Shown piece by piece: positions 27,075 to 64,000 of a DNA stretch of 64,000 nucleotides (the first letter of the stretch is position 1; each line of letters begins with the position of its first letter). The stretch comes from a virus (taxonomy: Duplodnaviria; Caudoviricetes), in IMG/VR virus record IMGVR_UViG_3300031992_000074, positions 1 to 64,000 of that record; one strand, written 5' to 3'. The translations under genes were made by a program, and so were the position numbers. The notes under the pieces are model-generated. The model did no database searches and was not told where the DNA came from. It saw only the letters and a program-made list of their open reading frames with translations.

Positions 27075-27090
27075 TTGAGGTTTTTATTTT
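27062..27090. terminator. Bidirectional intrinsic terminator
   Basis: AAAAACCTC-TTAATT-GAGGTTTTT at convergent gene ends. Confidence 0.75.
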
Positions 27091-33497: not shown

Positions 33498-35192
33498 CTA
33501 ACTAAATATTATTTCAAAATTTTCTTCTATTGTTGGTGTACTTTCATCTCTATTTCAATTAAGACGAACTTGAAATTCACTTTCTTGTGCAGGTCTTTGA
33601 TATGTAATAACATCTGCAATTAAATCTTCATATGAATTATCATCAGAATCTTTGAATACTGATTGAGTAACAATTGATGAATTTCCTTGCCAACGTTGAT
33701 AACGAGGATTGTTTGGTTCGTTTTGCGGAACAAATGTGTCATCATTTTGTTTAACTTGTAGGTTAATATTATTATAATCAAAAATTGTTCCAGACTCAAA
33801 AGCGTCATTTCTATATCTTATTTTATAATCATAACCACTATTTTGTGAATGATAATAATATCTAGGAGCCATAACCGCAATTTGTATTGCATATGATAAA
33901 CCAAAATCTAATTCATCACAAGGAACACAATTGTAAATAATTACAGGGTCTCCATCCTTATCAAATCCTCCTATAAAATTCCAATTATAATATTGAGCAA
34001 GTGCGGATTCAAATATCATAAAATGAGATACAGAAGGAATCGAATTTCTATCTAACTGATATTGAATATATCTATCAAAATAATTAATATTATCTTCTTC
34101 GTCTATTCAAACTGAACGTCCATAAAATGCTGATTGATTTTTCCAATATTTAAAATATCAAATATCACTTTTTCTATTTAATACATATTGGTCTGTATTA
34201 TATGAATAATAAATGTTTTCTCCATCTGTTCATACATATGCGCCATTAAAATTTGTTAAACCATTTCAAGTTTTTTTAGACCAAGTTGAAGTTGATTTGT
34301 CTAATACATATTGAGTAAGACCATTTGAATAATAAATATTATCTCCGTCTCTTCAAATTGCTCCACCACTAAAATTTGTTAATCCACTTCAAGTCTTATT
34401 TGTTCAGTATGGTTCTGGTTCTTCATCATCATTTACAATTAAGACTTTGTGTTTACTTGAAAGAGAATAATATATATTTTCACCATCTGTTCATATATCT
34501 GTACCATAAAAACTAGTATCATCTAATCCAGTTCAAGTTTTTTCCTTTCAAGTTAAATCTACTGGATCTAATTTATATTGATAAGTACCACTTGAATAAT
34601 AGGTGTCTTTACCATCTGTCCATATATTATATCCTTGTCCTTGTAAAGTACCGCCGCCTTCTACAGCTCATTCTTTAACTATTCATTTGCTTGTTGTTTT
34701 ATCGAACATATAACTATTTCTACCATTTAAATAATAAGTATTATTGTCATAAGTTCAAATACAAGAGCCGTTACTAATAGGTAAATCAATTGTATCTCTT
34801 ATAAATCATCTAGATTCTAAATCATAAGCATCTTTTTTATAAATTGATGCACCTATATTCAAAGTCTCACTGTAATCTGCACCATATTGATATACATGAG
34901 TTGTTCTATTTTTAAAACCTCATCTAAAAAATAACTTATAAATATCAATAGCATCATTTTCATTTTCATTAATTATGCTATCTTCTGTAATAACTGTATC
35001 ATCTTTCTTAATAAAAGTATAAGTATTATCGTTATTCTCATTATATCCCAATAGTCTTCATTCAGGATTATAATAATGTAAATATTCATATAATGAATCA
35101 ATACTATTTTCTAAAGACAAAATATATTCTTTGTGAATTGCTTGTCTTTGTTGACTTAGAGGCCTTTGAACTGTAATATTAAAAAATTTCAT
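33498..35192 (-). CDS. Tail protein with six Trp-rich ~40 aa repeats (beta-propeller-like), 564 aa (17 TGA=Trp)
   Basis: Single frame checked codon by codon; repeat GxxIWTDGxNIYYSxGxxQYxLDKxxxxWxxKTWxGL. Confidence 0.8.
34060..34769 (-). repeat. Six tandem degenerate protein repeats
   Basis: Repeat starts GSCIWTYD / GYNIWTDG / GTDIWTDG / GGAIWRDG / GAYVWTDG / GRSVWIDE. Confidence 0.8.
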
Positions 35193-41845: not shown

Positions 41846-42247
41846 TTAGTTAATTTCTTTATTTTTATCTCTTTCGTTTAAAATCCTTTGATTTTTAATA
41901 ATATCAGCACCGCCCAATTCTTTAAACTCTTCCAATTGAGTTAATGTCGCTTCATTATTGGCTTCTAAAATAGATCCACCTTTATCAAGTATATCTGCAA
42001 GTTTTTCAGCATCTAAATTATTAATAATATCATTAATTTTATCACTTATTGCTTTTATATTAGTTAAATAGAATACTCTAGCATCTTTTACTAAATCCAT
42101 TAAATTAATTTTAGTAATTTTATAAAAATCACTTTGCTTATATTCTTTTTCAAAATCTTTTAATTTTAATAATACATCAAAGAAATTATCAGTTTCTTCA
42201 AGTATTTCTTTTAATTTATTGTTTAAATATTCATTAGTTAATTCCAT
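41846..42247 (-). CDS. Putative tail assembly chaperone
   Basis: Directly upstream of TMP; RBS GAAAGGA favours ATG 42247 over the track start 42307. Confidence 0.5.
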   Translation of the reverse strand: MELTNEYLNNKLKEILEETDNFFDVLLKLKDFEKEYKQSDFYKITKINLMDLVKDARVFYLTNIKAISDKINDIINNLDAEKLADILDKGGSILEANNEATLTQLEEFKELGGADIIKNQRILNERDKNKEIN

Positions 42248-42266
42248 AATATCATTTTCCTTTCTT

Positions 42267-42986
42267 TTAATCTTCTCAACCAATATAATTTTCGGTTGTA
42301 TCATCATTTATAACTAAAAAAGTTAAATCAACTGCGTTAGCATTTGAATTAAAATATAAAGATTTATTTACTTGAACTACCGCTTTATCTATATGTATCC
42401 AAGTTTCAGTAGTTTCATCATCTTCATTAGAAATAGTAGATATATCTAAAGTTACATAAACATTGTTTCTTTTATCAAGAGAATAAAGATTATTTGTAAT
42501 AACTTCATATACAACTGTATAATATGCATCTGCATTATCTACTACAATTTCGTCCTCATCTAATGTTGAATATGCTTTTTCAAGCGTTGGCGCCGCATTT
42601 TCATCATCAGCATAGAAAACATATACTAATTTCTTTTGTTTTCCTAAACCTTTAGTAAGATATAATTTATAATCTTCAGAAGATAAGATTTTTTCCTGGA
42701 AAGTTACCGAAAATCCTTCTTTTTTTAAATAAATTAGATTCAAAATCTTATCTGTGAGTGTTACATTATATATTGAAAAACTATTAATTTTTTCTGTTGC
42801 GTATCCAGCATTTCTGTCTGTTCCAGCCATATCAACACTACGAGAATTAAAATTAATAACACCATTTTCACCATGTATGATAGTATATGGCTCGTGGTCA
42901 TATGTTATTTTATAATCTCCAATTGGGTCAGAACTGTATGCACGAATAATACAATCGATTTGATTTCCTATCTTATGTGTTGCCAT
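42267..42986 (-). CDS. Tail-region structural/hypothetical protein, ~239 aa
   Basis: GAGGTG RBS before ATG 42986; TGA at 42276 is followed two codons later by TAA 42267. Confidence 0.6.
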
Positions 42987-43104: not shown

Positions 43105-44004
43105 TTAGTCTTTTAGACCGTTATCCTCTATAATTTGTGCATTAGTAGCATAATCTAATCTAGGTAAAATAGTATAGAATGTACCAGTTATAACGCCATC
43201 TTCGTCTCCTGCTGTTTCATCATCACCGATAAGAATTTTAACTTCATTTAAGTCACCATTCATATCAAATACAGTAGCATCTCCTTCTGCATCTTGAGTT
43301 AATGATAATAATGAGTCAGATAAGAAGTCATAGAAAATAATATATGCTTGAACTTGCTTACCAGTGTTAGCATCAACAAGGAAAGTATCACCAACAACAG
43401 TTTTATGACCTGCAAAAGTAGTTGTAGCATGTAATGCATCAGTAGCACCTTTAGTTAAAGTAGCATCAGTCGCTAAATCTGTTCTAAAATATTCAACAGT
43501 TAAACCTGTTAAAGCTTCTAGAGCTTCTGCGTTACCTAATGCATTTTGCATTTCAAGACGAGCAGTCTTACCATATTTAACTAATGGAGAAGCGTTTTGT
43601 CCACCAGTAATAGTTTTAGTAGGACCTTCTTGAGTAGCATTTGCAGTCTTTAAGTACTTTAAGTAAGAAATTTCCTTAGTCATTAAATATAATGCAATAA
43701 TTTCATTAGCTTTTAAATCTTCAAAATTAATTTTTGCATTTTCATTTAACTCATAAGTGTAAGATCCTTCAGATTCTTCAGATTCACTTCTAGTAACAAA
43801 AGTATTCTTAATATTATATAAAGCTTCTAATTGAGTATTGGTAAAAGTTTTTGTTGCTGTATGATCTTGAAGTTCTTTCATTGTCATACCATCATAAACA
43901 TCATAAATCTTTGCGTTCATAACGGTAACAATACCAAAGTTTCTTAAAGCAGAGTTCCAAGCTGCACTACTATTTTTTAAATTACTATAAGAATTTGTAG
44001 CCAT
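43105..44004 (-). CDS. Major tail tube protein (SPbeta-like family)
   Basis: TITGGQNASPLVK..ARLEMQNAL, FAGHKTVVGDT, LTQDAEGDATVFDM; high-expression codon style; no TGA. Confidence 0.7.
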   Translation of the reverse strand: MATNSYSNLKNSSAAWNSALRNFGIVTVMNAKIYDVYDGMTMKELQDHTATKTFTNTQLEALYNIKNTFVTRSESEESEGSYTYELNENAKINFEDLKANEIIALYLMTKEISYLKYLKTANATQEGPTKTITGGQNASPLVKYGKTARLEMQNALGNAEALEALTGLTVEYFRTDLATDATLTKGATDALHATTTFAGHKTVVGDTFLVDANTGKQVQAYIIFYDFLSDSLLSLTQDAEGDATVFDMNGDLNEVKILIGDDETAGDEDGVITGTFYTILPRLDYATNAQIIEDNGLKD

Positions 44005-44023: not shown

Positions 44024-44758
44024 TTATTTTATAAAGAAATTGGGTGTTTGTCCCTTTTTCAAATTGCCGGAAGCGTAAGCCATTTTGGTTACGTCATAAG
44101 ACACTGACTGTGCGGCATAGGTATATAATCAGTGAATTTGAGCCATTGTTTGATTAAATAAATAATCAAATGTGAGAGCAGGAATTTGATAAGATATAGT
44201 AAGCAAAATTTTTAAAATTTGCTCAGTATCTCCACCGTTCTTGTTTTTGATTTTATTGACTTGCTTTTCAAACTCTTTTTGAGCCAGATAGAGTTGTCTA
44301 GCAGCCTCATTTTCAAAAACAGGTGTTTTTTCCTCTTTTTCTCCACAAGATAATTTTAAAATATTTATGATATAATTTCAAATATCTGATGTAATAATAA
44401 CATCATTTGCAATAAGTTCTTTTTTCTTAAAATCAAAAAATAAATTATGAATTAATGTACTTAATTGCTCACGTAATAATGATACTATTTTAGTATATTG
44501 AGCATACATACCAAATTCAAAAATTAAATTTTTAATTTCTGTTAAGCTATCTTCTGATTGAAATTGAGTTGGTAATAATTTCTTTCTATACTCATCTCTA
44601 CAAATTATTGTATAACAAGTTGCTCATTCTTCATTAGAGAAAAAATTTTTTAAAGATTTTAAATATAAAATAATTACTTGATTACCAATAAAAATTTTTA
44701 CTTCTTTATTGTCTTTTATAAATAAATTTAAAATCGAATAATTACTATTAATTTCCAC
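44024..44758 (-). CDS. Hypothetical tail-region protein, 244 aa (GTG start, 3 TGA=Trp); absent from ORF track
   Basis: Open frame from GTG (overlapping the upstream TAG) to TAA 44024; GAAAGGGG RBS. Confidence 0.7.
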
Positions 44759-45279
44759 TATAAATCAGCCCCTTTCGAAGGTTGGTCTGAAATTTGGAAT
44801 TCAATCTTATAACCAAATAGATAATTAGAATATGAAATAGCAGTAGAAGAAAGAACTTCAAGTTGTCCTGAGCAACTGAACTTTGTACCATCTATTAAAT
44901 CAACTATTTCTGATTCTAATTCCATTAAACGTAAATTATGGTCTTTTAATACTAAATGGTCTAAATCTGAACAAATAAAAATAGAACCAGAAAATAAATT
45001 ATTATTATCTTTCTTATCTAATGTTACATCTGTTGCAACATTAATTACCATAAAAGTATTTCGTCCCATTTCTTTTATTCCTGTTTCACTCAAGGGAGAA
45101 ATAGAAATATACTTGTTATCCATTAATTGTTTGAAAGTAAGCGGAGTAAAATCGATTGATAATGCATCAATCGAATCTACCACTAATAATCTTTGAATAA
45201 TTTCATTTTGTGAAAAAAGACGGCTTAACTCTAATGGTAATTTTTTAATGTTCTTAAAATTTTTAACCATCCTATTCAC
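44758..45279 (-). CDS. Putative tail terminator / head-tail completion protein
   Basis: Position between head-completion and tail-tube genes; start may be 45270. Confidence 0.5.
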   Translation of the reverse strand: MNRMVKNFKNIKKLPLELSRLFSQNEIIQRLLVVDSIDALSIDFTPLTFKQLMDNKYISISPLSETGIKEMGRNTFMVINVATDVTLDKKDNNNLFSGSIFICSDLDHLVLKDHNLRLMELESEIVDLIDGTKFSCSGQLEVLSSTAISYSNYLFGYKIEFQISDQPSKGADL

Positions 45280-46627: not shown

Positions 46628-47128
46628 TTATTCTTCGTTCAAAGAGAATGATACTTTTAATGTTTGTTCAAGCATTTGCTTTACACCAACAGTAAGTTTA
46701 TCAATGTTTGCTTTTGCTATATCCATAACTTTGTCTTTACCAAAATCTTTTATTGCAGATTCGATTGCTGCTCTGTTACCCTTTTGTAGGCGGGTAAGAA
46801 TAGTTTCATTTGTTTTTTCATCTGCGGGTACAAAGTCTAATTCATCTGCGAAATAAAGATTGGCTTCTTTTGCAGCTTGTAACAATTCATTGGTGTCACT
46901 AAAAGTGAAATACCCTTTCTTAAATAATCTATAAACATCGTTATTAGTAAAAACGCCTAATGCTAAACTGATTGGCATAATTATTTCTTTATTTGTATTG
47001 CTTGCACCTAACTTAATTAATCTTACATTTGAAGGATTATCATAAGGTGATAAATTAAAGATAATTAAATTTGGTGTTGTGTTAATCATTCTAATTGTTT
47101 TGTTAAAATTTACTTCGGACATATTCAA
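46628..47128 (-). CDS. Hypothetical protein downstream of capsid gene
   Basis: Intact ORF; the RBS suggests a start at 47119. Confidence 0.6.
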   Translation of the reverse strand: MNMSEVNFNKTIRMINTTPNLIIFNLSPYDNPSNVRLIKLGASNTNKEIIMPISLALGVFTNNDVYRLFKKGYFTFSDTNELLQAAKEANLYFADELDFVPADEKTNETILTRLQKGNRAAIESAIKDFGKDKVMDIAKANIDKLTVGVKQMLEQTLKVSFSLNEE

Positions 47129-47225: not shown

Positions 47226-48323
47226 TTAGTTGTTTTGGATGAATTCAGAATCTTCTAATCCATCAACTGCAGCATCAGATACTTCGATAACTGCATAGTT
47301 GTTAGCCATAGCAAGACCAACACCTAACATTCTATGAATTTCCCACTTTTCTCCACCAACAGCGTTGTTGTTCTTTTGGATCATAGTGTCGCCCTTGAAT
47401 GCAACTTTAACTGGTTTAACGCCTGTAGGTAATAAGAATACCTTGTTAACGTCATAGAACCACTTAGTATTAGAGTTGTCTAGTAAGTAGTTAGGTAATT
47501 CAATTACTTGAGCACCCTTGTAAATAGTTACGTGACCTAAACGTCTAACATCTTCGTTGTCTTCACGAGTTGGATATTGGATTACTACACCACCAGTAGT
47601 TGTTGAAGCAACTGGGTTGTATAATTCAGAAATTGCTTGGTATGAACCAATAATTGTAGGTTGACCATAAGCTTTAACATATGGCATTACTACGTCGATA
47701 GCTTGACCTAATGTAGCCTTAGTAGCAACGATCTTACCACCTTGAGCTTCACCAATTCTAGCATATCCTGCAGCTGGAGTACCAGATGCTAATTCTTCGA
47801 AGATTTCCTTATAGATTTCTTCTTGGAATCCTTCAACGATTGTAGCAAACATTTCAGCTAGACTTACCTTACCAGCAAGTAATTCTTCTAATGAAATGAA
47901 TACTGCAGCAGTTTCAACGAAAGTAGGTAAACTGAATGTAGCAGATGTTAATCTAGCTGCACGGTAGATACCTTCTCTTGAACCTTTGCTAATAACTAAT
48001 TTAGCACGATTCTTACCTAACTTGTTAAGTTCGAATACAACTTCTTCATCTCTAGCAAAAGTTTTAACTTCAGCAAATTGACCTAAAACGTCTCTGATTT
48101 TTGCAGGAACGATTTCATCAACAGCTTCTTCGATTAATGCGAATGCAGCACCTTCTACTGCTCTGATGTCTCTAACAGATGCATTTTCAGGTAAACCTAA
48201 AGTTTCGCAAATTGCTTTAACAGCTGCTTCATTTACATCTAAAGCTGAGAAAGTTGTGTCGCCAAATGCTACAGGTTGGTTTTGGCAAGCGCCTTTAATT
48301 AATGTTAATAATTCTTTTTCCAT
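47226..48323 (-). CDS. Major capsid protein (HK97 fold), 365 aa
   Basis: FALIEEAVDEIVP..LGQFAEVKT, position after protease/decoration genes, strong codon bias, following terminator; no TGA. Confidence 0.85.
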   Translation of the reverse strand: MEKELLTLIKGACQNQPVAFGDTTFSALDVNEAAVKAICETLGLPENASVRDIRAVEGAAFALIEEAVDEIVPAKIRDVLGQFAEVKTFARDEEVVFELNKLGKNRAKLVISKGSREGIYRAARLTSATFSLPTFVETAAVFISLEELLAGKVSLAEMFATIVEGFQEEIYKEIFEELASGTPAAGYARIGEAQGGKIVATKATLGQAIDVVMPYVKAYGQPTIIGSYQAISELYNPVASTTTGGVVIQYPTREDNEDVRRLGHVTIYKGAQVIELPNYLLDNSNTKWFYDVNKVFLLPTGVKPVKVAFKGDTMIQKNNNAVGGEKWEIHRMLGVGLAMANNYAVIEVSDAAVDGLEDSEFIQNN

Positions 48324-48338
48324 TCTTTCTCACCTCTA

Positions 48339-48920
48339 TTACTTTAAGAATACATAAGTATATGATGGTTGACCATCAGCAAACTTATTGCAATCTAAGA
48401 AATCATCTAAACAATATTGAGCATGATCAGTCTTTGTAGAGTCACCATCAATATAGTTTCTAGTAATGCATGCGATACGACCATCAGCAATAGCATCTGC
48501 CATTTGATCGCTATCTGGAGCATAAGTAGTAGTGAATTCATCACCAGGAATTAATTGTACTAAACGAGCAGGATCTTCAGTGATTTCTGCAGCATAGTAG
48601 CTATATCCACCAAATGGTAATAATTCTTCAGTATAAGTTACAAATAATGGAGCTGTTTCATCAGCATTAGTTGCATAATCAATATAACCATCAGCAGTTA
48701 ATTGAGCTAATTGACCATTTTCAACAAATAATTTACCAGGTACTTTTGTAGTGTTGATTAACTTATTAGCTGCAGCGATTGCTGTTGCATCCTTTAATGT
48801 ACCATCAGCGTTATAAACACCTTTTGGTTCAACTTGTGCTACAACGAAGCCAGGTTGTAAACCTTTTAAGTTATTAGGTTCAATAATGTTGAATTTTGGT
48901 AAAAAATCAAAAATATTCAT
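48339..48920 (-). CDS. Capsid decoration/stabilising protein (putative)
   Basis: Between protease/scaffold and capsid genes; high-expression codon style; VENGQL..FVTYTEE..PGDEFTT. Confidence 0.55.
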   Translation of the reverse strand: MNIFDFLPKFNIIEPNNLKGLQPGFVVAQVEPKGVYNADGTLKDATAIAAANKLINTTKVPGKLFVENGQLAQLTADGYIDYATNADETAPLFVTYTEELLPFGGYSYYAAEITEDPARLVQLIPGDEFTTTYAPDSDQMADAIADGRIACITRNYIDGDSTKTDHAQYCLDDFLDCNKFADGQPSYTYVFLK

Positions 48921-54954: not shown

Positions 54955-55020
54955 TATATCACTCCTTCTTAAAAATATTATAGTCTAGTAAAAATAAAAT
55001 ATCAAAAATAGACTTTTTAC

Positions 55021-55060
55021 TTGACAATCTCTTGACTAAAAATTATAATAATATTATAAG
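55021..55060 (+). promoter_or_regulatory. Overlapping pair of sigmaA promoters
   Basis: TTGACA 55021-17bp-TATAAT 55044, and TTGACT 55032-17bp-TATAAG 55055. Confidence 0.75.
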
Positions 55061-55137
55061 GGAGATTATTTACTTAATGGATTAAGTATAAAATTTTAAA
55101 CCTGTAAAAAAGTGGATATTCAAAAGAGGAAAAATTA

Positions 55138-55166
55138 TTGACAAAACTATTGACAAAGACTATAAT
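55138..55166 (+). promoter_or_regulatory. sigmaA consensus promoter with second internal TTGACA
   Basis: TTGACA 55138-17bp-TATAAT 55161; extra TTGACA at 55150. Confidence 0.75.
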
Positions 55167-55227
55167 AATAATGTAGGGAATAAAGATAAATGAATAAGTA
55201 TGTTTATATAGATTAGGAGTGATACTT

Positions 55228-56262
55228 ATGACTACTGCTGAAATAATACTTTTGACCTGTTTAATTGCAATATGTGGCTTAGTACTATTTTTAATAATTA
55301 AATGGGTTTTTACAATAAAAGAAAATCAAGAGTTAAAACAAAAGAATAAACAAGACAATAAACGAATTGAAGAATTATCTGTTCTCTTAAAAACTGAACA
55401 AGAAGTTAGTAAGGTACATTTTGATAAAACAGTCCAACTTTCATTAGAAAAGGCAGAACTACAATCGCGCGTAGATAAATTTAATATTAGTCAAGAGTGA
55501 CAAGAACAACATCAAAAAGAAATGGCGGTTATTGATAAGGCTATACAAGATAAAATGCTGGAATTACAATCTCTTGCTTCTGCTTGCGATACTACTAAGA
55601 AAGAAGTTGAAGAACTTAAATTAAATAAAGAACAACTTCAACATAAAGAATTGCAAGTTAAGTCAGATATTGAAAATTTAAAAGTACTATTACAACAAAA
55701 ACAAGCGGCATGAAGTGCGGTTGATAGGTTCGAAAAATGCGGCTTCGGAGATGAATTACCTTATATTGACTATGAAGAGTATTTTTCTAAAAATAACTTT
55801 GAAATTGTATTAAAATTGCTTGATGATTGTATTGAAGTGGCGCCGCAATTTAAGTCCGAGCTTAGAAAAATTGAGTGGAATTTATGTTATTTGCCTTATA
55901 AAAAAGGATTTATTAAAGATTTTAGCCGCAGTGGTATTTATATGCTTGAAGTTAAAAATAAATATGAAAATGATGTGTTAAGGGAATTGGGGCTAAAACG
56001 AATAGATAATGAAGGTAATATTGTTTATATAGGTCAAGCAGTTAATATCTATGATAGATGAACTACGCATATTAAGAAAATGCTTGGAATTGAGGCTAGT
56101 GGCGGAGAAAAATTATATAAATTTAAGCCACTAATGTTTAAATGAAAAGTAATTGAATGATGCGATAGTAGTGAATTAAATGAAAGAGAAAAATTTTGGA
56201 TTGATAGTTTTAAAAGTGATGAATTTGGATTAAATAGCAAAGGCGGAAATAAAAAAGACTAG
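55228..56262 (+). CDS. TM + coiled-coil + C-terminal GIY-YIG nuclease, 344 aa (5 TGA=Trp)
   Basis: N-terminal hydrophobic helix IILLTCLIAICGLVLFLII; SGIYML..VYIGQAVNIYDRW*TTH..LNEREKFWI..GLN. Confidence 0.8.
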
Positions 56263-56280
56263 TTGGTTTCTAGTCTTTTT
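56252..56280. terminator. Bidirectional intrinsic terminator
   Basis: AAAAAGACTAG-TTGGTTT-CTAGTCTTTTT at convergent gene ends. Confidence 0.8.
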
Positions 56281-56296
56281 ATTTTTATATTGTTTA

Positions 56297-57646
56297 TTAA
56301 TCTCAATAGCAAGAATATGTATAATAAGGATCTTTATAATGACCTCAATCAACTTCCATTTTTACTGTATCATCATATGAATATATTTCATTCCAATTAG
56401 TTGAATTATCATAAGTTAAACCAGTAATACATGATTGATCATCATTACCAGCACCTGTCTCTTCATAAGATCTAATTTGGAAACCGATATAGCGACTATC
56501 TGCAACTCATATTCTTCAATCATGGTCTCCATATTCACCAAAATCATTAATCCAAGTATTAGCATCTTCTGCATTTGGTAAATCACTCGGTATTGCAACT
56601 GGACCAAACCAATCATTATAACCATCATAAGGGAATTTCATTCTTACGTGAGTTGCTGAAGAAGACCTTCTAAATGCGTGATAACTTGTCCATCCTTGTC
56701 CATCTATATACATTCCATTACCATCAGTATTTGACGATAGATAACTACGATTAGGCTTACTAGTAGATGAATAATAAGTATCACTAACTCATTCATTTTC
56801 ATGATATGTTGCATCTACTTCTGCTCAAATATCTGTATTTTGTGTTATTTGTCTAGTTAGAGATGTACTTGTAGAGCCTCCATAAGTGAAATAAACTGAG
56901 TCGCTATTTTGTTTATATGTATAATTGCCTATTAATACACTACTACCAGAATTTAATGTACCTCTATTTGAACCATTTACATAATAAGTAACATCATAAG
57001 CACTTTGATTATGAAGTGTTAAACTATAATATCTTGTACTTCTAGTTGCAACACCAGAAATAGTCATTTCACCTGTTACTATAGCAGTAGGTATTGAAAT
57101 TGTGTTAAAAGCATATGTATAATAATTATCAGCAGGATTTACAATAAAAGTATATGTGTTATTATTTAATGTTATTGTTTGACCAGAATTAGTAATTGTT
57201 GTAAAATGCGGAACATTATATATACTTGTTATTGTTATATTGTTTGAATCTTTTCAATAGCCATAAGTACTTGATAATTCTATTGTATAAGTTTTTAATG
57301 TTGTAGTTGGAGAATAAGAATAAGGAAGACCTTCTTCTAAAGTTTCCGTTGTGTCTTCTATTGACTCATATCCGTCCGCTGCGGCCGCACTACATGTGAT
57401 TGTAGTTACACGAGGAATTTCGACTGTGCCGCTAGTTGTCGCCGCATCTACATAAGTTATATTATCATCACCAATTATTGTGATAGAAGCAATACCAGTA
57501 CCTATAGTATATGAAACGGTACAAGTATTTTTTCAAATTATAACTCCGTTTTTTTGAATCTTTTTTACTTTACCACGTATACTTTCACCATTTTTAATAT
57601 ATGGCATTTCTAAAGATTTAATATCTTTTAAATCATTAAGGTTCAT
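56297..57646 (-). CDS. Tail fibre/adhesin-like protein B2, 449 aa (8 TGA=Trp); paralog of 58373-59989
   Basis: One frame when TGA=W; T/S/Y-rich beta repeats; shares RSTRYYxLTxHN and GHY..YYTYSCxW with the paralog. Confidence 0.75.
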
Positions 57647-57661
57647 AAATAATACAACCTC

Positions 57662-58246
57662 CTATGCTTCAACTAAGAATAACTTGGTAAAATTTGTACC
57701 ATCTTCCATTGTAATTTCTCATTCTTCTTCTAGATACTTAAAAATTTCTTCAGTTGTTGCTTTAACTACATTTGTACCTACAATGATATTTCCGCCGCTT
57801 GCGATGGCAGATGTGACTTTATATGGCGTATTATTATAAATTAATATATCACCTACTGCATACGCTTTACTTGCTGTTTGTGTTAGCTCAACAGTTACAG
57901 TTTTATATGCGGACATCTCATCTAATAGTAATGTATCAAGCTGTTGTAATATATACACTTGATTTGCTTTACAAGTAAGTAGATAAGTTTTATCAGATTT
58001 TACTTGAATATAATAATCATATGTCTCACATAATGAATCTGTTGAATTAAATGATATATCATTGATTTGTTTAAAAGATATTATATTGTTTTCTGTATTA
58101 TATTTTACATAGATATTTTGTCCATATTTAATTATCGCTGAATCTTTTAAACACTCTTGATATTGTTCATCTGTTAAAGTTCCAGAAGCTGATTGTATTT
58201 CAATATATCCAAAAGGTTGTTCAATTGAATCATTTAATTGTTCCAT
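57662..58246 (-). CDS. Tail fibre-associated protein B1, 194 aa (1 TGA=Trp); paralog of 60008-61393
   Basis: GYIEIQSASGTLTDEQY N-motif; reads through TGA 57719 to EW*EITMEDGTNFTK. Confidence 0.7.
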
Positions 58247-58277
58247 AATAACACCTCTTTTGTTATTAATTTAAAAA

Positions 58278-58315
58278 TATATTAAGGGCACGGATTAAAA
58301 GGTACCCTTAATATT
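58278..58315. terminator. Inverted repeat separating the two fibre cassettes
   Basis: ATATTAAGGG...CCCTTAATAT around a 16 nt loop. Confidence 0.45.
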
Positions 58316-58372
58316 ATATGATGTTTAATTTAATATATTAATAATTCCAAGAATATAGGCTTTAATATTTTA

Positions 58373-59989
58373 TTAACTCCACCAACAAGAATAAGTATAA
58401 TATGCTTCTGTATAATGTCCATAGGCTAAATCTGTAAGTAAATTTCTCCAATTAGAAGGGTAATTACCAACAACCAATTGAACAGCTATATCATACCAAT
58501 CGCTATCACCATCACTATCATATTTTGCATAGAACCATATTCTCATATTTTGTCCATTAGAACACCATACAGTGTAATCAAATTCACTACCATAACTATC
58601 ACCGTTCATACCAGAAGGTAAGCCAGAAGGTAAAGGTGCTATATAATCAGTTCCATTATATGTGATTTTTATATGTGTTGATGGTGGAGTGTTATGTTCA
58701 ATAGGGTTCATAGTCCAAGAGTAATAATCATAATCATCTTCATCCCATCCTACACAACTTTCTGAACCGTGAATATAACCCCAATTACCTTTATTATTAT
58801 CTTCTGTATATCCATCAGGTCTGTTATCGACAACGAATTCAGATGGATGATATGTAGAACTTACATTAGCATATATGGTTTGATTACCATTCATAGTTAC
58901 ATACTTAGTTCCTCCAGATGTCCCAGAATAACTGAATGATACGCTTGCACTAGAACCGTAAGTATAACTACTACCATAAGTATAATCACCATATCCTCCA
59001 ACAGTTGCACCATTTCCTAATGTAATTGTATAACTAGAGTTATTATGAACTGTTAATGTGTAGTATCTTGTACTTCTTGATAAAGTTCTTGTTGTAGGCG
59101 AAGAACCACTAGTTCCAAATTCAAAACTTCCTTCTCCTGAATAACTATAACTATTTGTATCTTTATTACTTAAAGATATGCTATTTTTGTTTCTAGTTGA
59201 ATTTTCACAATATAAAGTTACAACTGTACCATAACTTGAAGATATAGAATAAGATTTATTTGAACTTGAATTTGTTACAACAGCTGTGCAGTATGAATTA
59301 TTAGTTATTCTACCTGCCGAAGAATCAACTGCTGTAATTATAGTTGAAGTTACTGAACTTATTGTAGTATTAACTCTAACATAATTATAGCCAGTTCCTG
59401 AACCTAACCATAAAGAGCCTAAACTATTTGTTGAAGAATAAGTACCACTTACACCAGTTATAATTCTATCATCTTTACTATAGTCAGCATACACTTTTCT
59501 TGAACGAATATAAATGTCTATAGAAAGTGAACTTGTATAATAATAATTATTATTAACCACACCATTTAAATTAAGAATTTGACTATTAGCATTAAATGTT
59601 AATGAGCCGTCTGTATGGGTAGTTCCATCATTTAAAACATATCTATAATAAGGAACGGCTGTTGCATTTATTGTTATGTTTCCAGTAACTGTTCCTGTAT
59701 AAGTTATAGTTCTATATCTTGTTACATTATCACAAGTGAAACCATCCCCTCCTGAACCACCACTATCATAACTTGTAAAACAATAACTAGAATTAGCAGT
59801 TAAGGTTACTGTATAACTTGTTCCTTCTTCATATGTTCCTGCTCCTGTGTAAGTAAAGCCATTACCTACAACTGTTATTGTGTATTCTTTAGTACCAGAC
59901 CAAATAATATTCCCATTACTATCTTGAATTTGTTTAACAGTACCTTCTGGTATAGTTATAGATTTTACTTTAGAGAAATCAAAACTCAT
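58373..59989 (-). CDS. Tail fibre/adhesin-like protein A2, 538 aa (11 TGG, no TGA)
   Basis: MSFDFSKVKSITIPEGTVKQI N-motif; S/T/Y/G-rich beta structure. Confidence 0.7.
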   Translation of the reverse strand: MSFDFSKVKSITIPEGTVKQIQDSNGNIIWSGTKEYTITVVGNGFTYTGAGTYEEGTSYTVTLTANSSYCFTSYDSGGSGGDGFTCDNVTRYRTITYTGTVTGNITINATAVPYYRYVLNDGTTHTDGSLTFNANSQILNLNGVVNNNYYYTSSLSIDIYIRSRKVYADYSKDDRIITGVSGTYSSTNSLGSLWLGSGTGYNYVRVNTTISSVTSTIITAVDSSAGRITNNSYCTAVVTNSSSNKSYSISSSYGTVVTLYCENSTRNKNSISLSNKDTNSYSYSGEGSFEFGTSGSSPTTRTLSRSTRYYTLTVHNNSSYTITLGNGATVGGYGDYTYGSSYTYGSSASVSFSYSGTSGGTKYVTMNGNQTIYANVSSTYHPSEFVVDNRPDGYTEDNNKGNWGYIHGSESCVGWDEDDYDYYSWTMNPIEHNTPPSTHIKITYNGTDYIAPLPSGLPSGMNGDSYGSEFDYTVWCSNGQNMRIWFYAKYDSDGDSDWYDIAVQLVVGNYPSNWRNLLTDLAYGHYTEAYYTYSCWWS

Positions 59990-60007
59990 ATTTAATTCCT
60001 CCTTTTA

Positions 60008-61393
60008 TTAATTATCTAACAATAAAATTGTCTTTGTAACAGTAGAAGTTACTCCATTATTTTCAACTGTAAATGTCCAAGTTTCGCTTGAAACTGAAGT
60101 TCCATCGATTTTTAAACCTACTGTATCTATACCTGTAGATGTTACCTTTGCTACTTGTTCGCCTTCAATACCTAGTTCTATGCTAGGATTAGTTGCAGAG
60201 TCGCGTAGATAAATATGATTATTATCACTGGTAGCTATCTCAATTTCATCAGGATATTCTTGACCAATACGAAGATAATTTGTCCTTGATGTTCCTTGTT
60301 GTGTACCATAGTATTTTCTAGCCTCTATCCAAGGATCACCATCTATATCTAATGAATAAGAACAAACAGTTTCACCAGTAGTTTTATTATAATTATTTTC
60401 TAAGCTAAGGCCATTATTATCTGCCCACATTTCTGTTTTATAAATATTATTTGATGAGCTTTCTGTTTTTCCAGTTTGGAAACAATAATCAGAACTATCA
60501 TAACTAGTAAGTAAAGCATGTTTATAACTGTTAGTTCCTGAAGTATTAGAATATAATTCAAGATATACATCCGTATCAGCATTTTTAATGTATGATACAT
60601 TTTCTACTGTTCCTACACTTAGGCTTCCACTTATTGTTTGATTAGCTGTAAATGTATTGGCATTATTTTTGTATGCAACATTAGTCATAGATGGAATATC
60701 ACTCATAGTTGCTATTTTATTTGTTGAAGCATCATAAATACCATTAGTTTGTAATGTTGCTACTTTATTATTTACTATACTTGTAGTTCCTATTTTTACA
60801 TCAGTTACTGGAATGTCACTTGAAGTAATAAATCCTGCACCATTAGTTAAATCATTTGTATCTGCTGGTATTGTTGGTTTATTAGATAGGTTATTATAGT
60901 TTAAATAATAACTAGCATTTTGATTATTTAATTTAGTTGAATTTGCTGCAGTACCAGAAGTAGTTAAATAAGTATTAGTATCAATAGTTCCATCATTTTT
61001 TACTAAACCACTTGTAGATGATTTCTCAATAAAATTACTTACTAAGTTATTAATCTTAGTATAGTTATATGTACTACTTGAAGAATTAGTAATTGCATAT
61101 GCTTTGGTTGAATGTGTCACTTCACATTTTATTTTATTTGTCGTTATATAATCTCCAGAATTTGAAATATCAATTGATACAAACTCAATAAAATAATTAT
61201 CATCATTACTAATTTTATATAACCAAGATGCACCATCTAAATTTATAACGCAATAAGGTTTTAATGCTTCGGCATATTGTTCATTAGTTAATTTTCCACT
61301 AGTGCTCGTTAATTCAATATAACCTACTCTATTATCTTTTATATTTCTTGCCTCGGTATCACCAGGCAATTTAATTTTTGAAATATTCGCCAT
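60008..61393 (-). CDS. Tail fibre-like protein A1, 461 aa (no TGA)
   Basis: GYIELTSTSGKLTNEQY, YNNLSNKPTIP..TNDLTNGAGFIT fibre motifs, C-terminal SETWTFTVEN. Confidence 0.7.
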   Translation of the reverse strand: MANISKIKLPGDTEARNIKDNRVGYIELTSTSGKLTNEQYAEALKPYCVINLDGASWLYKISNDDNYFIEFVSIDISNSGDYITTNKIKCEVTHSTKAYAITNSSSSTYNYTKINNLVSNFIEKSSTSGLVKNDGTIDTNTYLTTSGTAANSTKLNNQNASYYLNYNNLSNKPTIPADTNDLTNGAGFITSSDIPVTDVKIGTTSIVNNKVATLQTNGIYDASTNKIATMSDIPSMTNVAYKNNANTFTANQTISGSLSVGTVENVSYIKNADTDVYLELYSNTSGTNSYKHALLTSYDSSDYCFQTGKTESSSNNIYKTEMWADNNGLSLENNYNKTTGETVCSYSLDIDGDPWIEARKYYGTQQGTSRTNYLRIGQEYPDEIEIATSDNNHIYLRDSATNPSIELGIEGEQVAKVTSTGIDTVGLKIDGTSVSSETWTFTVENNGVTSTVTKTILLLDN

Positions 61394-61419
61394 TTATTAA
61401 CCTCCGTAATTAAATGATT

Positions 61420-61443
61420 GGTAGGGAATATTATATCCCTACC
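61420..61443 (-). terminator. Intrinsic terminator
   Basis: GGTAGGGA-ATATTATA-TCCCTACC perfect 8 bp stem. Confidence 0.7.
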
Positions 61444-61481
61444 TTTCATTAAGATTAATATTTTTTATTTTTATTTTATTA

Positions 61482-62918
61482 TTATTCAGATGCATCTGCG
61501 CTTACTGTAATAGTTACTGCACTACCTGTGAATGTAGGAGTAGTTGTTGTTGTAGTAGGTAAGCTATTTGCAACGAATGTATCTTCACCTTGTTCAAATG
61601 AAGGTAATGTACCAGGATTGAAGAAATCTGAACCAATTGATGCAGGAGTGAAATCAAATGTAATTGAACTTACTTCTTGTGAAGTGTAATTTACATTTCC
61701 AGAAACTTCTGCCCAAATATCACTTTCTGATATATATGGGAAGTTAGCATCTGCTGTATCATAAGAATCTGTTCCTTGAGTAAATGAAGGTAATGTTCCT
61801 TGAGTAAATGCACCTTCAGTGAATGAAGGTAATGTACCTGGATTGAATGATCCTTCTGTAAAGCTTGGTAATGTACCTTGACTAAATGTTGTAGAAGGAG
61901 TTAAAGCAGTACCAGGAGTTGCAGCACTAAATACTAACATTTCATCATCACTAGCATCAACTGCTACTGTAACACCAGTTGTTGCAAAAGTTCCGCTTGA
62001 AGGTGTAAATACAGGCAATGTACCGGCTGAGAATGTATCTGCAGTTTTACTTGGTAATGTACCAGCAGTAAATGTATCTGAAGCTTTAGTTGGCAATGTA
62101 CCAGCTGAGAATGTATCTTCGCCTTGTGAGAATGATGGCCATGTACCGCCATATAAGAAGCCTTCGCCAACATGTATGTCAGCGCTTAAATTTTCTAATT
62201 CAACTGAACCATCTGTTAAAACAACAGAAACATTAGTTAAATCACCACCATCAAATTCACTTTCATCAATAGATGGTAGAGTACCTTCATCGAATGAGTC
62301 AGTTCCTTGAGTGAATGAAGCAGAAGTACCAACAGTACTAATTGTAGTAAATGGTGAAATTGTACCTGTTGGAGTATAGCTTGTTGAAGCTGTATCAGCA
62401 TCTGCTAAATCACCAAAAGTGTGAACGTCAGTAGTTGAATTATCTTTAGTTTTAGTTAAAGTGTGAGTACTATCTACATAATTAATATCAGTTAAATAAT
62501 CACTTAAATCTACTTGAGTTGAACCGATTTGTTCGTTAGTGTATCTTTGAGCAGCTTCTTCTCCATTATCAACAGTAATATATTCTAGATAAGTACCTGC
62601 GGCAGCTTGTGCATCTGCAATTAAATAAATAACATACATTGTTTCTGCACTTGGTGTAGGTAAAGTTGTAACTACTTCATAGCTAAAAGCGTGAACTCCT
62701 GCAACTGCAGCATCAACATAAGATTTAATATTTTGAGAATAAACGAATTTGTCTTGTTCGTTCATTGCTCCGATTTGACCTTTAATTATATCTTCATTGA
62801 AACCTTCAACAATTTTTCTAAGGTCTGCATCCTTTAAATACTTGACGTCATTTGCGCCTTCGCCAAGTTTAATTTTTGATAAGACATTATCATGTCCATA
62901 ATTTGGTGTCCAAGACAT
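61482..62918 (-). CDS. Repeat-rich fibre-like structural protein, 478 aa
   Basis: Acidic, T/S/F-rich; EYIT..EQIGSTQVDLSDY motif; about ten GTLP(S/T/V) repeats. Confidence 0.7.
   Translation of the reverse strand: MSWTPNYGHDNVLSKIKLGEGANDVKYLKDADLRKIVEGFNEDIIKGQIGAMNEQDKFVYSQNIKSYVDAAVAGVHAFSYEVVTTLPTPSAETMYVIYLIADAQAAAGTYLEYITVDNGEEAAQRYTNEQIGSTQVDLSDYLTDINYVDSTHTLTKTKDNSTTDVHTFGDLADADTASTSYTPTGTISPFTTISTVGTSASFTQGTDSFDEGTLPSIDESEFDGGDLTNVSVVLTDGSVELENLSADIHVGEGFLYGGTWPSFSQGEDTFSAGTLPTKASDTFTAGTLPSKTADTFSAGTLPVFTPSSGTFATTGVTVAVDASDDEMLVFSAATPGTALTPSTTFSQGTLPSFTEGSFNPGTLPSFTEGAFTQGTLPSFTQGTDSYDTADANFPYISESDIWAEVSGNVNYTSQEVSSITFDFTPASIGSDFFNPGTLPSFEQGEDTFVANSLPTTTTTTPTFTGSAVTITVSADASE
61600..62330 (-). 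repeat. GTLPSFxxG / GTLPSKxxDTFxA intragenic repeats
   Basis: Recurrent GGTAATGTACC / GGCAATGTACC on the + strand at about 30-39 nt spacing. Confidence 0.75.
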
Positions 62919-62982
62919 ATTTTTTATAGCCTCCGAAAATTTTCTTGTTTTTATTTTTATAATAATCCTTTTTTAGGAATTA

Positions 62983-63486
62983 TTATCACGGTTTATTTAA
63001 TACTAAACACTCAGAATCTTCTTCATTCATTGTAAAATTAATTTCATCAATAGCATCTGTAACTGCTTTTTGAGTCATCGCACCGTCTGTGTTTTGACCA
63101 TGAATTGTATATAATTTTACATTTGTATTTAATATTGTAAATCTACCTATTGCTTTGAAATAATATACGTTGCCAGTTGGCAAGTCTTTATATAATTTTG
63201 TTAATCATTCAGTTAATTTCTGTTTAGTCGGATCATCTAATGGTTTATCATAAAAAGATTGAGTTACACTGTCGTAATACCCTTCTATGACAAGTTGATC
63301 ATTAACTTCACCACCAAAGTATGGTAAATCAATATAATTATTAATACCATCACCTATTTTCATTCGATTAGTATCTGTTTCTCAAACAGGTTCACCTTTT
63401 AATGGTTTCTTTGTACCAACTAAAACTTGATTTAAAGCGGTTTTTTCACCTCTTTTTAATTGAATAGAAGTTATTATATTACTCAA
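62983..63486 (-). CDS. Fibre-base-like protein (Mtd-N/hyaluronidase-N-like motif), ~167 aa (TTG start, 3 TGA)
   Basis: IQLKRGE..GEPVW*ETDTNRMKIGDG..YIDLPY; HGQNTDGAMTQKAVT; GGAGGTG RBS. Confidence 0.65.
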
Positions 63487-63859
63487 TTGTAATTTCACCT
63501 CCATCAACTAATAGAGTATCAATTTGTCCTTTAATATCATCAATATCATCTTCTATATTGTCAATTTTTTGATCTTCTGCATCAAATTTGTCATCAATAG
63601 AATCTTTACTATAGTAAGGATCTAAACCTCCTATGTAAACAAAATTATTATTTGTTCATTTATAATAAGATTGTCCATCATCGTGGTCTTCATCAACTAA
63701 TACTTTAACTATATCATTATCAGTAAGTTTTGAAGTATCATAATTGTCTAAATCACTTTTACTTTGTACGATATCGGCAACATCGGGATTATTTTTGAAC
63801 TCATCTAATGAATGCTTTGCACTTCCGGCTAATGCTCTTGCGATATAATCAATTGCCAT
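63479..63859 (-). CDS. Tail-fibre-associated hypothetical protein, 126 aa (1 TGA=Trp)
   Basis: DVADIV..DIVKVLVDE..SYYKW*TNNNFVYIG; continues to TAA 63479. Confidence 0.65.
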
Positions 63860-63875
63860 TTTTTATCACCCCATA

Positions 63876-64000
63876 TTAATCCACTTTTTGGATTGATATA
63901 GTTGCGACGTTAATTTTACTAATATCTGCAACATTGAAACGGAATCGCTTTGTTCCCGCAACTGAAATGTAATAAATGCCATTTTCAGTAATTTTATCTA
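63876..64000 (-). CDS. 3' end of a gene entering from beyond the window
   Basis: Open frame ..DKITENGIYYISVAGTKRFRF..QKVD-TAA. Confidence 0.5.
   Translation of the reverse strand, partial: DKITENGIYYISVAGTKRFRFNVADISKINVATISIQKVD

What the first reader, a model, noticed from the sequence alone, without database searches (positions are those of the whole stretch)
56297..61393. Duplicated two-gene fibre cassette: one copy in standard code, the other in TGA code
A1 (60008-61393) + A2 (58373-59989) is followed by B1 (57662-58246) + B2 (56297-57646), separated by a hairpin. A1/B1 share the GYIE..SG.LT.EQY start and a W-x-x-T-x-E end. A2/B2 share the N-motif, RSTRYYxLTxHN and GHY..YYTYSCxW. Cassette A has 15 TGG and 0 TGA; cassette B has 9 TGA and 4 TGG, with homologous Trp being TGG in A and TGA in B (NIIW/VIIW, SETW/EEEW, final W). 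Inference: the genetic code may choose which receptor-binding tip is built, so progeny from non-suppressing versus suppressing conditions or hosts differ in host range. The simpler alternative is that A was recently imported from a code-11 phage.
Basis: partly seen in the sequence, partly recalled or inferred. Interest (0 to 1): 0.88.

Follow-up and report, generated by a model that had tools for sequence, protein, structure and literature searches.

The report
Two swappable fibre-tip cassettes, recoded phage
A sheep-rumen phage that reads the stop codon TGA as tryptophan carries two distantly related fibre-plus-tip gene pairs, one spelled without any TGA; the TGA-free pair is most likely a recent arrival by gene swapping, not a device that lets the genetic code choose the host-binding tip.

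Summary
A1/A2 (60008-61393, 58373-59989) have 15 TGG and 0 TGA. B1/B2 (57662-58246, 56297-57646) have 9 TGA and 4 TGG. Other late genes use TGA for 69% of Trp, so 0 of 15 has P = 2.6e-8. A1/B1 and A2/B2 are true but old paralogues (36% and 28% identity), not a fresh duplication.

The "code chooses the tip" reading is not supported:
- Portal, tape measure and the Mtd_N gene just upstream all contain TGA, so no virion can form without TGA decoding.
- A near-identical relative (L015) carries a different fibre from about codon 28 of A1 onward.
- Recoded relatives have TGA-bearing cassettes at the same position (L012: 10 TGA).
- TGA and TGG interchange at least as fast as other synonymous changes.

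The best reading is a hypervariable fibre locus built from plug-and-socket modules, with a conserved fibre C-end motif and a conserved tip N-end motif. Cassette A arrived recently from a TGA-poor or standard-code relative. The closest A-like block (L004) sits in another recoded phage and is also TGA-free, so weak selection against TGA is not excluded.

The parts
62983..63507 (-). Mtd_N-domain protein (174 aa; 3 TGA, 0 TGG). It is the first gene of the conserved string Mtd_N protein, then a ~430-480 aa protein, then the fibre
   Evidence: Pfam Mtd_N, 30.2 bits against a cut-off of 26.3. PHROG tail-fibre/tail-spike N-termini. The synteny is kept in L004, L012, L014, L015, L018 and many metagenome loci.
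61482..62918 (-). 478-aa protein with GTLPSFTQG-type repeats (0 TGA, 3 TGG); function unknown, always found between the Mtd_N gene and the fibre gene
   Evidence: The L015 homologue (76-81% aa identity) has Trp3 as TGA; the homologues in L004, L012 and L014 have no Trp at all.
61420..61443 (.). 8-bp GC-rich palindromic hairpin between the 478-aa gene and A1
   Evidence: Terminator-like scan.
60008..61393 (-). A1, a 461-aa fibre. It has an N-terminal anchor motif (ISKIKLPGDTEARNIKD), the 'GYIE' domain shared with B1, a shaft, and a C-terminal dock motif (ETWTFTVENNGVTSTVTKTILL). 0 TGA, 4 TGG
   Evidence: There is 95.7% nt identity to L004 over 184 nt. Collinearity with L015 ends at 61309.
58373..59989 (-). 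A2, a 538-aa tip protein. It has an N-terminal dock motif (DFSKVKSITIPEGTVKQIQDSNGNIIW), an Ig-like domain and a beta-rich C-terminal domain shared with B2. 0 TGA, 11 TGG
   Evidence: It is 60% aa identical to P0006 (L004), with 83.5% nt identity over 1087 nt spanning the A1/A2 junction.
58279..58314 (-). 13-bp stem hairpin followed by a U run in the 126-nt A2-B1 spacer; a likely intrinsic terminator or attenuator
   Evidence: The first 57 nt after the A2 stop are 93% identical to the sequence after the A2-like gene of L004.
57662..58246 (-). B1, a 194-aa short fibre/adaptor. It has the GYIE domain, a CBM5/12-like SKAY..YKV knob and a diverged C-terminal dock motif (EEEWEITMEDGTNFTKLFL), but no N-terminal anchor motif. 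1 TGA, 0 TGG
56297..57646 (-). B2, a 449-aa tip protein. It has the N-terminal dock motif, two CnaB/Ig-like sandwiches and a C-terminal domain shared with A2. 8 TGA, 4 TGG
   Evidence: It is 47% identical to the TGA-free P0010 (L010/L011).

Best explanation
The region is the host-range (fibre) locus of a TGA=Trp recoded rumen phage and is built from exchangeable modules. Each cassette is a fibre or adaptor protein followed by a separate tip protein. The fibre ends in a conserved ~25-aa motif (E-x-W-T-F-T-x-x-D/N-G-T-x-x-T-K-x-I). The tip gene starts 12-18 nt downstream, and the tip begins with a conserved ~30-aa motif (D-F-S-x-V-K-x-I-T-I-P-E-G-x-V-K-x-I-x-D-x-x-G-N-x-x-W). I infer that the two motifs dock onto each other, so that any tip can be mounted on any fibre. 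This phage holds two such cassettes with different tips, probably giving two receptor specificities. The difference in codon spelling is a historical mark, not a control device. In recoded genomes TGG and TGA drift into each other about as fast as any synonymous A/G change, towards roughly 70% TGA. Cassette B has been resident long enough to reach that level (9 of 13). Cassette A was brought in recently by recombination at conserved flanks, namely the A1 anchor motif on one side and the spacer after A2 on the other. Its source was a relative in which Trp is spelled TGG, either standard-code or only lightly recoded. Shown here: the paralogy, the codon counts, the motif conservation, the swap in close relatives and the turnover rate. 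Inferred: the docking, incorporation of both tips into the virion, receptor binding, and the direction and date of the import.
For: (1) Statistics: 0 of 15 Trp codons in A are TGA, against 0.688 in the other late genes (P = 2.6e-8). A has the same A-ending bias in K/E/Q/L/R codons as the rest (0.91 against 0.87), so only the Trp codon is odd.
(2) Swapping: L015 is 89% nt collinear with the window from 64801 to 61309, and its upstream proteins are 96-98% identical. From about 85 nt into A1 it carries a different fibre, 34% identical. L009 has a 100% identical B2 next to genes that are only 90-92% identical. L012, an 85-kb recoded relative, has a single different cassette at this place.
(3) No positional ban on TGA: L012 fibre 1 TGA/2 TGG and tip 9/13; L014 fibre 5/23; L019 8/19; L023 and L024 6/0; L005 A2-like tip 2/3; Trp3 of the L015 478-aa homologue is TGA.
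(4) Fast neutral turnover: against L007, 5 of 15 conserved Trp sites differ in codon, compared with 54 of 274 K/E/Q sites. My rough calculation from these figures (inference) puts A's residence below about half the time since the window-L007 split.
(5) TGA-free or TGA-poor relatives with the same gene string exist as possible donors: L018 (1 TGA/45 TGG), L021, L072, L006 (uses a TGA stop) and L010 (0/35). Borges et al. (bioRxiv 10.1101/2021.08.26.457843) report recoded and standard-code phages at more than 90% ANI.
(6) Modularity: the most conserved stretch between the window and L004 is the A1-end/A2-start junction (83.5% nt over 1087 nt). The C-end motif is invariant at E, W, T, F, T, K and I in 6 fibres. 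The N-end motif is found on more than 130 protein clusters of very different lengths.
(7) Contigs from RNA libraries of sheep gut samples cover both A and B without differences. This is weak, because DNA carry-over is not excluded.
Against: No donor with near-identical A1-A2 in a proven standard-code phage was found. The closest A-like block (L004) lies in a phage that itself needs TGA=Trp, since its GrcA-like gene is full length only under that reading. That block is also TGA-free (0 TGA/10 TGG). If the two A versions had diverged inside recoded genomes, some TGA would be expected in both, by my rough estimate with joint P of about 5e-4 (inference). This hints at either two separate imports or selection against TGA in this module. 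TGA use in L004's late genes is unknown; its 16 kb shows only 4 TGA. The fibre/tip assignment rests on synteny, one Pfam domain in a neighbouring gene and weak fold matches. None of the four proteins hits Pfam, PHROGs or NCBIfam.
Confidence: 0.6

Rival explanations
1. Selection keeps cassette A free of TGA. One fibre/tip set is then translated fully whatever the efficiency of TGA decoding, or earlier or at higher yield than B. This would give a graded effect on the A:B ratio rather than an on/off switch.
For: Two diverged recoded phages (the window and L004) both have TGA-free A-type blocks, 15 and 10 TGG respectively. The most abundant virion genes of this phage also lack TGA: the capsid gene 47226-48323 and five others have 3 TGG and 0 TGA in total. 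This shows that avoidance can be gene-specific. B2, with 8 TGA, would lose yield steeply if decoding were incomplete.
Against: The Mtd_N gene just upstream in the same gene string has 3 TGA and no TGG. Two tail proteins carry 16-17 TGA, so particle yield would collapse together with B. Relatives tolerate many TGA in the cassette at this position. L015 shows that the A position was replaced very recently, which explains the pattern without invoking selection. Fibres are low-copy proteins, unlike capsid.
Confidence: 0.17
2. One reading: the state of the code (suppressing or non-suppressing host or condition) decides which receptor-binding tip is built, giving progeny with different host ranges.
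For: There is a sharp contrast between two paralogous cassettes (0/15 against 9/13). A terminator-like hairpin separates them.
Against: Without TGA decoding there is no portal (3 TGA, PHROG portal E 1e-44), no tape measure (7 TGA) and no Mtd_N protein, hence no progeny. The two-cassette layout was not found in any other lineage among 114 related loci.
Confidence: 0.04
3. The four genes are not tail receptor-binding proteins. They would instead be head or neck fibres, or other decoration, encoded just upstream of the packaging genes. The codon history would be the same, but the host-range meaning would fall away.
For: The locus lies upstream of the packaging and portal genes, about 15 kb from the tape-measure/baseplate block, which has its own large distal proteins and an S74-chaperone fibre. 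One Atlas look-alike cluster of A1 carries Phage_head_fibr in 19% of its members.
Against: Mtd_N is a tail-fibre N-terminal domain. The best Atlas look-alike of A1 is named tail fiber protein (score 0.91). The propeller-repeat module of the tail gene 33498-35192 occurs inside the fibre genes of L010 and L014 at this locus. The B2 model matches phage tail and baseplate models (E 1.7e-6, but low TM).
Confidence: 0.15

Closest known systems
TGA-to-Trp recoded gut phages with code-partitioned genomes ('Agate'-type and others; Borges et al., bioRxiv 10.1101/2021.08.26.457843)
   Same: The genome is low in GC. TGA is absent as a stop. Replication genes are almost free of TGA, while structural genes are rich in it. 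Recoded and standard-code or TGA-poor relatives are closely related and live in ruminant guts.
   Different: That paper describes the early/late partition. It does not describe a TGA-free fibre cassette embedded among TGA-rich late genes beside a TGA-rich paralogue. No suppressor tRNA was found in the 79 kb held. Clade membership was not tested.
Phages with two receptor-binding proteins sharing an N-terminal adaptor (e.g. coliphage K1-5 tailspikes, CBA120 tailspikes, staphylococcal Twort-like RBP pairs); from general knowledge
   Same: There are two tandem genes or cassettes for distal tail proteins with a shared N-terminal domain (A1/B1, E 3e-7) and unlike distal parts.
   Different: Here each unit is split into a fibre and a separate tip joined by conserved end motifs. 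B1 lacks the anchor motif that A1 and the fibres of relatives have. Incorporation of both was not shown.
Lactococcal baseplate BppU-BppL type assembly, where the C-terminal part of one protein holds the N-terminal 'shoulder' of a separate receptor-binding protein; from general knowledge
   Same: A separate tip protein has a conserved N-terminus that would dock on the conserved C-terminus of the preceding gene's product, with the distal domains freely exchanged.
   Different: No sequence or profile similarity was found. The stoichiometry and fold of the junction are unknown.
Tail fibre plus tail-fibre-assembly chaperone pairs (lambda Stf/Tfa, Mu, P2); from general knowledge
   Same: A fibre gene is followed immediately by a second gene that co-varies with it.
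   Different: A2 and B2 are large (449-538 aa) multi-domain beta proteins with Ig/CnaB-like domains, not small chaperones. There is no Tfa-type Pfam match.

Membership tests
TGA=Trp (code 4) recoded phage | In-frame TGA at conserved Trp positions of homologues | tested here: met
   Six of the 8 TGA sites in B2 align with TGG-Trp of L010. The conserved N-motif Trp is TGA in B2 and L012 and TGG elsewhere.
TGA=Trp (code 4) recoded phage | TGA not used as a stop; genes end in TAA or TAG | tested here: met
   All 48 listed ORFs end in TAA or TAG.
TGA=Trp (code 4) recoded phage | Early/replication genes TGA-poor and late genes TGA-rich | tested here: met
   Genes between 6492 and 19185 have 0 TGA and DnaE has 1/25, while late genes have 97 TGA and 44 TGG.
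TGA=Trp (code 4) recoded phage | Phage-borne UGA suppressor tRNA | tested here: inconclusive
   ARAGORN finds no tRNA in the 79,069-bp contig. The contig is estimated 71% complete.
Phage tail fibre / receptor-binding protein | Profile or sequence match to a described tail-fibre family | tested here: inconclusive
   A1, A2, B1 and B2 have no significant Pfam, PHROG or NCBIfam hits. The neighbouring gene has Mtd_N above threshold. Atlas features call A1 'Tail fiber protein' at 0.91.
Phage tail fibre / receptor-binding protein | Fibre or adhesin-like fold | tested here: inconclusive
   The A2 model is confident only for residues 1-115 (Ig-like, Z at most 5.3). In the B2 model (pLDDT 66), residues 40-119 match a CnaB2 domain (Z 8.4, rmsd 3.0 over 80 aligned residues). 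BFVD tail proteins match at E 1.7e-6 but with TM at most 0.24.
Phage tail fibre / receptor-binding protein | Presence in the virion and binding to a host receptor | not testable with these tools
   Needs proteomics and adsorption assays; the host is unknown.
Dual-RBP phage (two fibres on one adaptor) | Two distal-protein genes sharing an N-terminal attachment domain | tested here: met
   A1 residues 20-109 and B1 residues 9-98 are 36% identical (E 3e-7). The same domain occurs in the L015 fibre and inside the L019 fibre.
Dual-RBP phage (two fibres on one adaptor) | Both proteins assembled on the same particle | not testable with these tools
   RNA-library contigs cover both. That shows neither translation nor assembly.
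Diversity-generating retroelement (Mtd-type tropism switching) | Template/variable repeat pair and a reverse transcriptase near the Mtd-like gene | tested here: not met
   No long direct repeats lie in 55000-64000; the longest are 36-49 nt at 60-86% identity. Only the Mtd_N domain is present. No RT gene was seen among the ORFs profiled.
Fibre + Tfa-type assembly chaperone pair | Small downstream chaperone with a Tfa/Caudo_TAP profile | tested here: not met
   A2 and B2 are 538 and 449 aa with no such Pfam match.

The most novel reading that the evidence does not exclude
The TGG-only spelling of the A-type cassette is kept by selection in at least two recoded phages (this one and L004). One fibre/tip set is then always translated at full yield, while the TGA-rich set scales with suppressor activity. 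This would tune the A:B tip ratio, and so adsorption preference, to the state of the infected cell.
Probability: 0.08. Interest if true: 0.75.

Novelty: new member of a known kind. Interest (0 to 1): 0.3.

Why it matters
The codon contrast is real and striking. It is best read as a date stamp: in a recoded phage the TGG:TGA ratio of a gene records how long that gene has lived under the new code. If that holds generally, it gives a cheap way to spot recently imported modules in recoded phages. It also points to one-way gene flow. TGA-free genes can enter recoded genomes, but TGA-bearing genes cannot leave for standard-code phages.

Separately, the conserved fibre-end and tip-start motifs describe a widespread, unannotated plug-and-socket system for swapping host-range tips in gut and rumen phages of Gram-positive-type lineages. 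This would be useful for annotating such phages and for understanding host-range modularity. Neither point overturns current views.

Tried and rejected
- **Complex prediction:** The tool was then unreachable and finally declared unavailable, so docking is untested.
- **Atlas:** I did not send B1 to any other remote tool.
- **Database searches:** tblastn of A2 against deposited phages found nothing. IMG/VR scans with A2, B2 and the tip alignment found nothing. The PDB sequence search found nothing.
- **Structure models:** the A2 model is poor (pLDDT 45). Fold searches gave only generic Ig/CnaB-type sandwiches, so no fold claim is made for the shared C-terminal domain.
- **Laid reads:** joints had sides of 20-26 nt at 88% likeness (one of 43 nt), and I regard them as spurious. 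Contig depth cannot rank A against B expression.
- **Chance:** rejected (P = 2.6e-8).
- **Composition signal of import:** none, as expected if donors are equally AT-rich (GC3 0.11-0.12 in A and in late genes).
- **Recent in-situ duplication:** rejected (28-36% aa identity).
- **DGR:** rejected.
- **Wider locus scans:** the metagenome and IMG/VR scans with the Mtd_N alignment (114 loci) found no second lineage with two docked cassettes. Many of those contigs are short.

Full report
**What the window is.** The window is the first 64 kb of a 79,069-bp IMG/VR virus contig estimated at 71% complete. Near-identical DNA lies in sheep gut metagenomes and metatranscriptome libraries. GC is about 30%. 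Under table 4 the minus strand from about 65.2 kb down to 27 kb becomes one unbroken string of long genes. These include:
- a portal (PHROG E 1e-44, 3 TGA)
- a capsid-like protein
- a 1579-aa tape measure (7 TGA)
- large distal tail proteins (16 and 17 TGA)
- an S74-chaperone fibre

All ORFs end in TAA or TAG. No tRNA was found.

**Checking the observation.** The remaining late-strand genes hold 97 TGA and 44 TGG. Zero of 15 therefore has P = 2.6e-8, and A differs from B by Fisher's test at 1e-4. For other A/G-ending codon pairs, A is as A-biased as the rest of the genome (0.91 against 0.87), so only the Trp codon is unusual.

A1 and B1 share an N-terminal domain (36% identity, E 3e-7). A2 and B2 share the N-terminal motif and a 270-aa C-terminal region (28% identity, E 6e-20). 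TGA = Trp is confirmed: 6 of the 8 TGA sites in B2 align with TGG-Trp in a TGA-free homologue. The hairpin in the A2-B1 spacer is a 13-bp stem followed by a U run. At the DNA level the two cassettes share only 36-40 nt patches. They are therefore old paralogues or separately acquired modules, not a fresh duplication.

**Anatomy.** The gene string is conserved in many gut and rumen phages. It runs: an Mtd_N-domain protein (174 aa, Pfam above cut-off), then a ~430-480-aa repeat protein, then a fibre.

- **Fibre N-termini.** Fibres at this position start with an anchor motif (ISKIKLPG..T...IKD). It is present in A1, L004, L012, L013 and L015, and in looser form in L014. It is absent from B1.
- **Fibre C-termini.** Fibres that precede a tip gene end in E-x-W-T-F-T-x-x-D/N-G-T-x-x-T-K-x-I, which is invariant at 7 positions in 6 fibres. 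B1 carries a diverged version.
- **Tip N-termini.** The tip gene follows after 12-18 nt, and the tip opens with D-F-S-x-V-K-x-I-T-I-P-E-G-x-V-K-x-I-x-D-x-x-G-N-x-x-W.

A full-library HMM search found only 11 proteins related along most of their length. It found more than 130 clusters, of 31 to 948 aa, that share just that N-terminal motif. The junction (A1 end plus A2 start) is also the longest well-conserved DNA stretch between this phage and L004, at 83.5% over 1087 nt. I infer a plug-and-socket joint between fibre end and tip start.

Structure models add little:
- A2 is confident only for residues 1-115, covering the motif plus an Ig-like sandwich.
- B2 (pLDDT 66) shows CnaB/Ig-like sandwiches. 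The best match is Z 8.4, rmsd 3.0 over 80 residues, which is in the range the tool calls common.
- B2 also gives weak matches to phage tail and baseplate models.

**Relatives and the code question.**
1. *L015.* It has upstream proteins 96-98% identical to the window and is 89% nt collinear down to 61309, about 85 nt into A1. From there it carries a different fibre, 34% identical. Its copy of the 478-aa gene spells Trp3 as TGA. The A position was therefore replaced very recently in one of the two lineages, and TGA is tolerated in the adjacent gene.
2. *L012.* This 85-kb recoded relative has one cassette at this position, with an 833-aa fibre (1 TGA/2 TGG) and a 748-aa tip (9/13).
3. *Other recoded relatives.* The fibres of L014, L019 and L023/L024 carry 5, 8 and 6 TGA. 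The A2-like tip of L005 has 2 TGA.
4. *B-type modules.* They also occur without TGA: L010/L011 have a tip with 0/14 and a fibre with 19 TGG.
5. *TGA-free or TGA-poor phages with the same gene string.* These exist: L018 (1 TGA/45 TGG), L021, L072, and L006, which uses a TGA stop.
6. *Turnover.* Among close relatives, Trp codons flip between TGA and TGG at least as often as K/E/Q codons change. Against L007 the figures are 5 of 15 and 54 of 274.

The spelling therefore drifts neutrally towards about 70% TGA. A 0-of-15 state means short residence, or selection. A rough relaxation estimate (my inference) puts A's residence below about half the window-L007 divergence time. This agrees with the swap seen in L015.

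**Why the switch idea fails.** Every particle needs the portal, the tape measure, the 16- and 17-TGA tail proteins and, probably, the 3-TGA Mtd_N protein encoded in the same gene string as A. Without efficient TGA decoding there are no virions, so no 'non-suppressed' progeny carrying only tip A can exist. With partial decoding, the 17-TGA tail protein would fall faster than B2 does.

**What remains open.** The closest A-like block (L004) has an A2 that is 60% aa identical and a 184-nt A1 stretch at 95.7% nt identity. It lies in a phage that itself reads TGA as Trp, because its GrcA-like gene is full length (77 aa, 61% identical to the window's) only with TGA = Trp. The four fibre-locus genes of L004 nevertheless have 0 TGA and 10 TGG. 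Either both phages took the module from TGA-free donors, or L004's lineage is only lightly recoded (4 TGA in 16 kb), or this module resists TGA. The contig ends 105 nt after the A2-like gene, so what follows is unknown. I give the selection reading 0.17 and the strict switch 0.04. Whether the proteins are tail tips or head/neck fibres is also not proven.

**Comparison with what is known and verdict.** The code partition is the published pattern for recoded gut phages. Borges et al. also report recoded and standard-code genomes at more than 90% ANI. Two tandem distal-protein cassettes and mosaic fibre loci are ordinary phage biology. What is mildly new is the use of the TGG:TGA ratio as a residence clock for modules, and the unannotated fibre-end/tip-start motif pair. 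The same avoidance is visible here.

Noticed in passing
window 58373-58470 and 56297-57646 (tip N-termini); proteins P0011-P0144: The ~30-aa N-terminal motif DFSxVKxITIPEGxVKxIxDxxGNxxW heads more than 130 protein clusters of 31-948 aa and has no Pfam, PHROG or NCBIfam model. Many clusters continue into PYRRLEYI-type or ...TKIEQYY-ending domains. It looks like a widespread docking peptide of exchangeable phage tips.
   Followed up: partly
window 55219-56262 (+): A GIY-YIG endonuclease gene lies antisense between B2 and the packaging genes. In L009, B2 is 100% identical, but the endonuclease and the next gene are only 92% and 90% identical. In L008 the endonuclease is 54% identical. A mobile nuclease here could drive the local mosaicism.
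   Followed up: partly
window 41846-42307, 43105-44004, 44758-45279, 46628-47128, 47226-48323, 48339-48920: Six structural genes, including the capsid-like gene, contain no TGA at all and only 3 TGG in total. They mostly avoid Trp altogether. This matches the pattern that abundant virion proteins avoid the recoded codon.
   Followed up: partly
window 33498-35192 (-); L010:26-1228; L014:11269-13751: A W-x-x-K-T-W-S-G...W-T-D-G-D-N-I-Y-Y-S repeat (propeller-like) module sits in a tail-block gene here with 17 TGA. The same module sits inside fibre genes of the Mtd_N locus in L010 (19 TGG, 0 TGA) and L014 (5 TGA/23 TGG). This is another module at different stages of TGA accumulation.
   Followed up: partly
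L005:10744-11733; L010:2660-3352; L012:20226-21164: Radical-SAM genes (a CxxxCxxC motif is seen in L010) lie directly or closely downstream of the tip genes in three relatives. There is none at that place in the window.
   Followed up: no
window 57662-58246 (-): B1 lacks the N-terminal anchor motif (KIKLPG..T...IKD) that A1 and the fibres of relatives carry. How the B unit attaches is unexplained. It might attach through the shared GYIE domain, or as a branch on A1.
   Followed up: no
L016:4266-4499 and 4532-4747: The L004 contig was gene-called in the standard code. Two small genes, one GrcA-like and one 71 aa long, are truncated at TGA there and are full length only with TGA = Trp. This phage is therefore lightly recoded, with 4 in-frame TGA in 16 kb.
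   Followed up: yes
window 27084-28109 (-): A further tail-fibre gene with a Peptidase_S74 intramolecular-chaperone domain (Pfam E 5e-12) lies at the end of the tail block. It has 0 TGA and 1 TGG.
   Followed up: no
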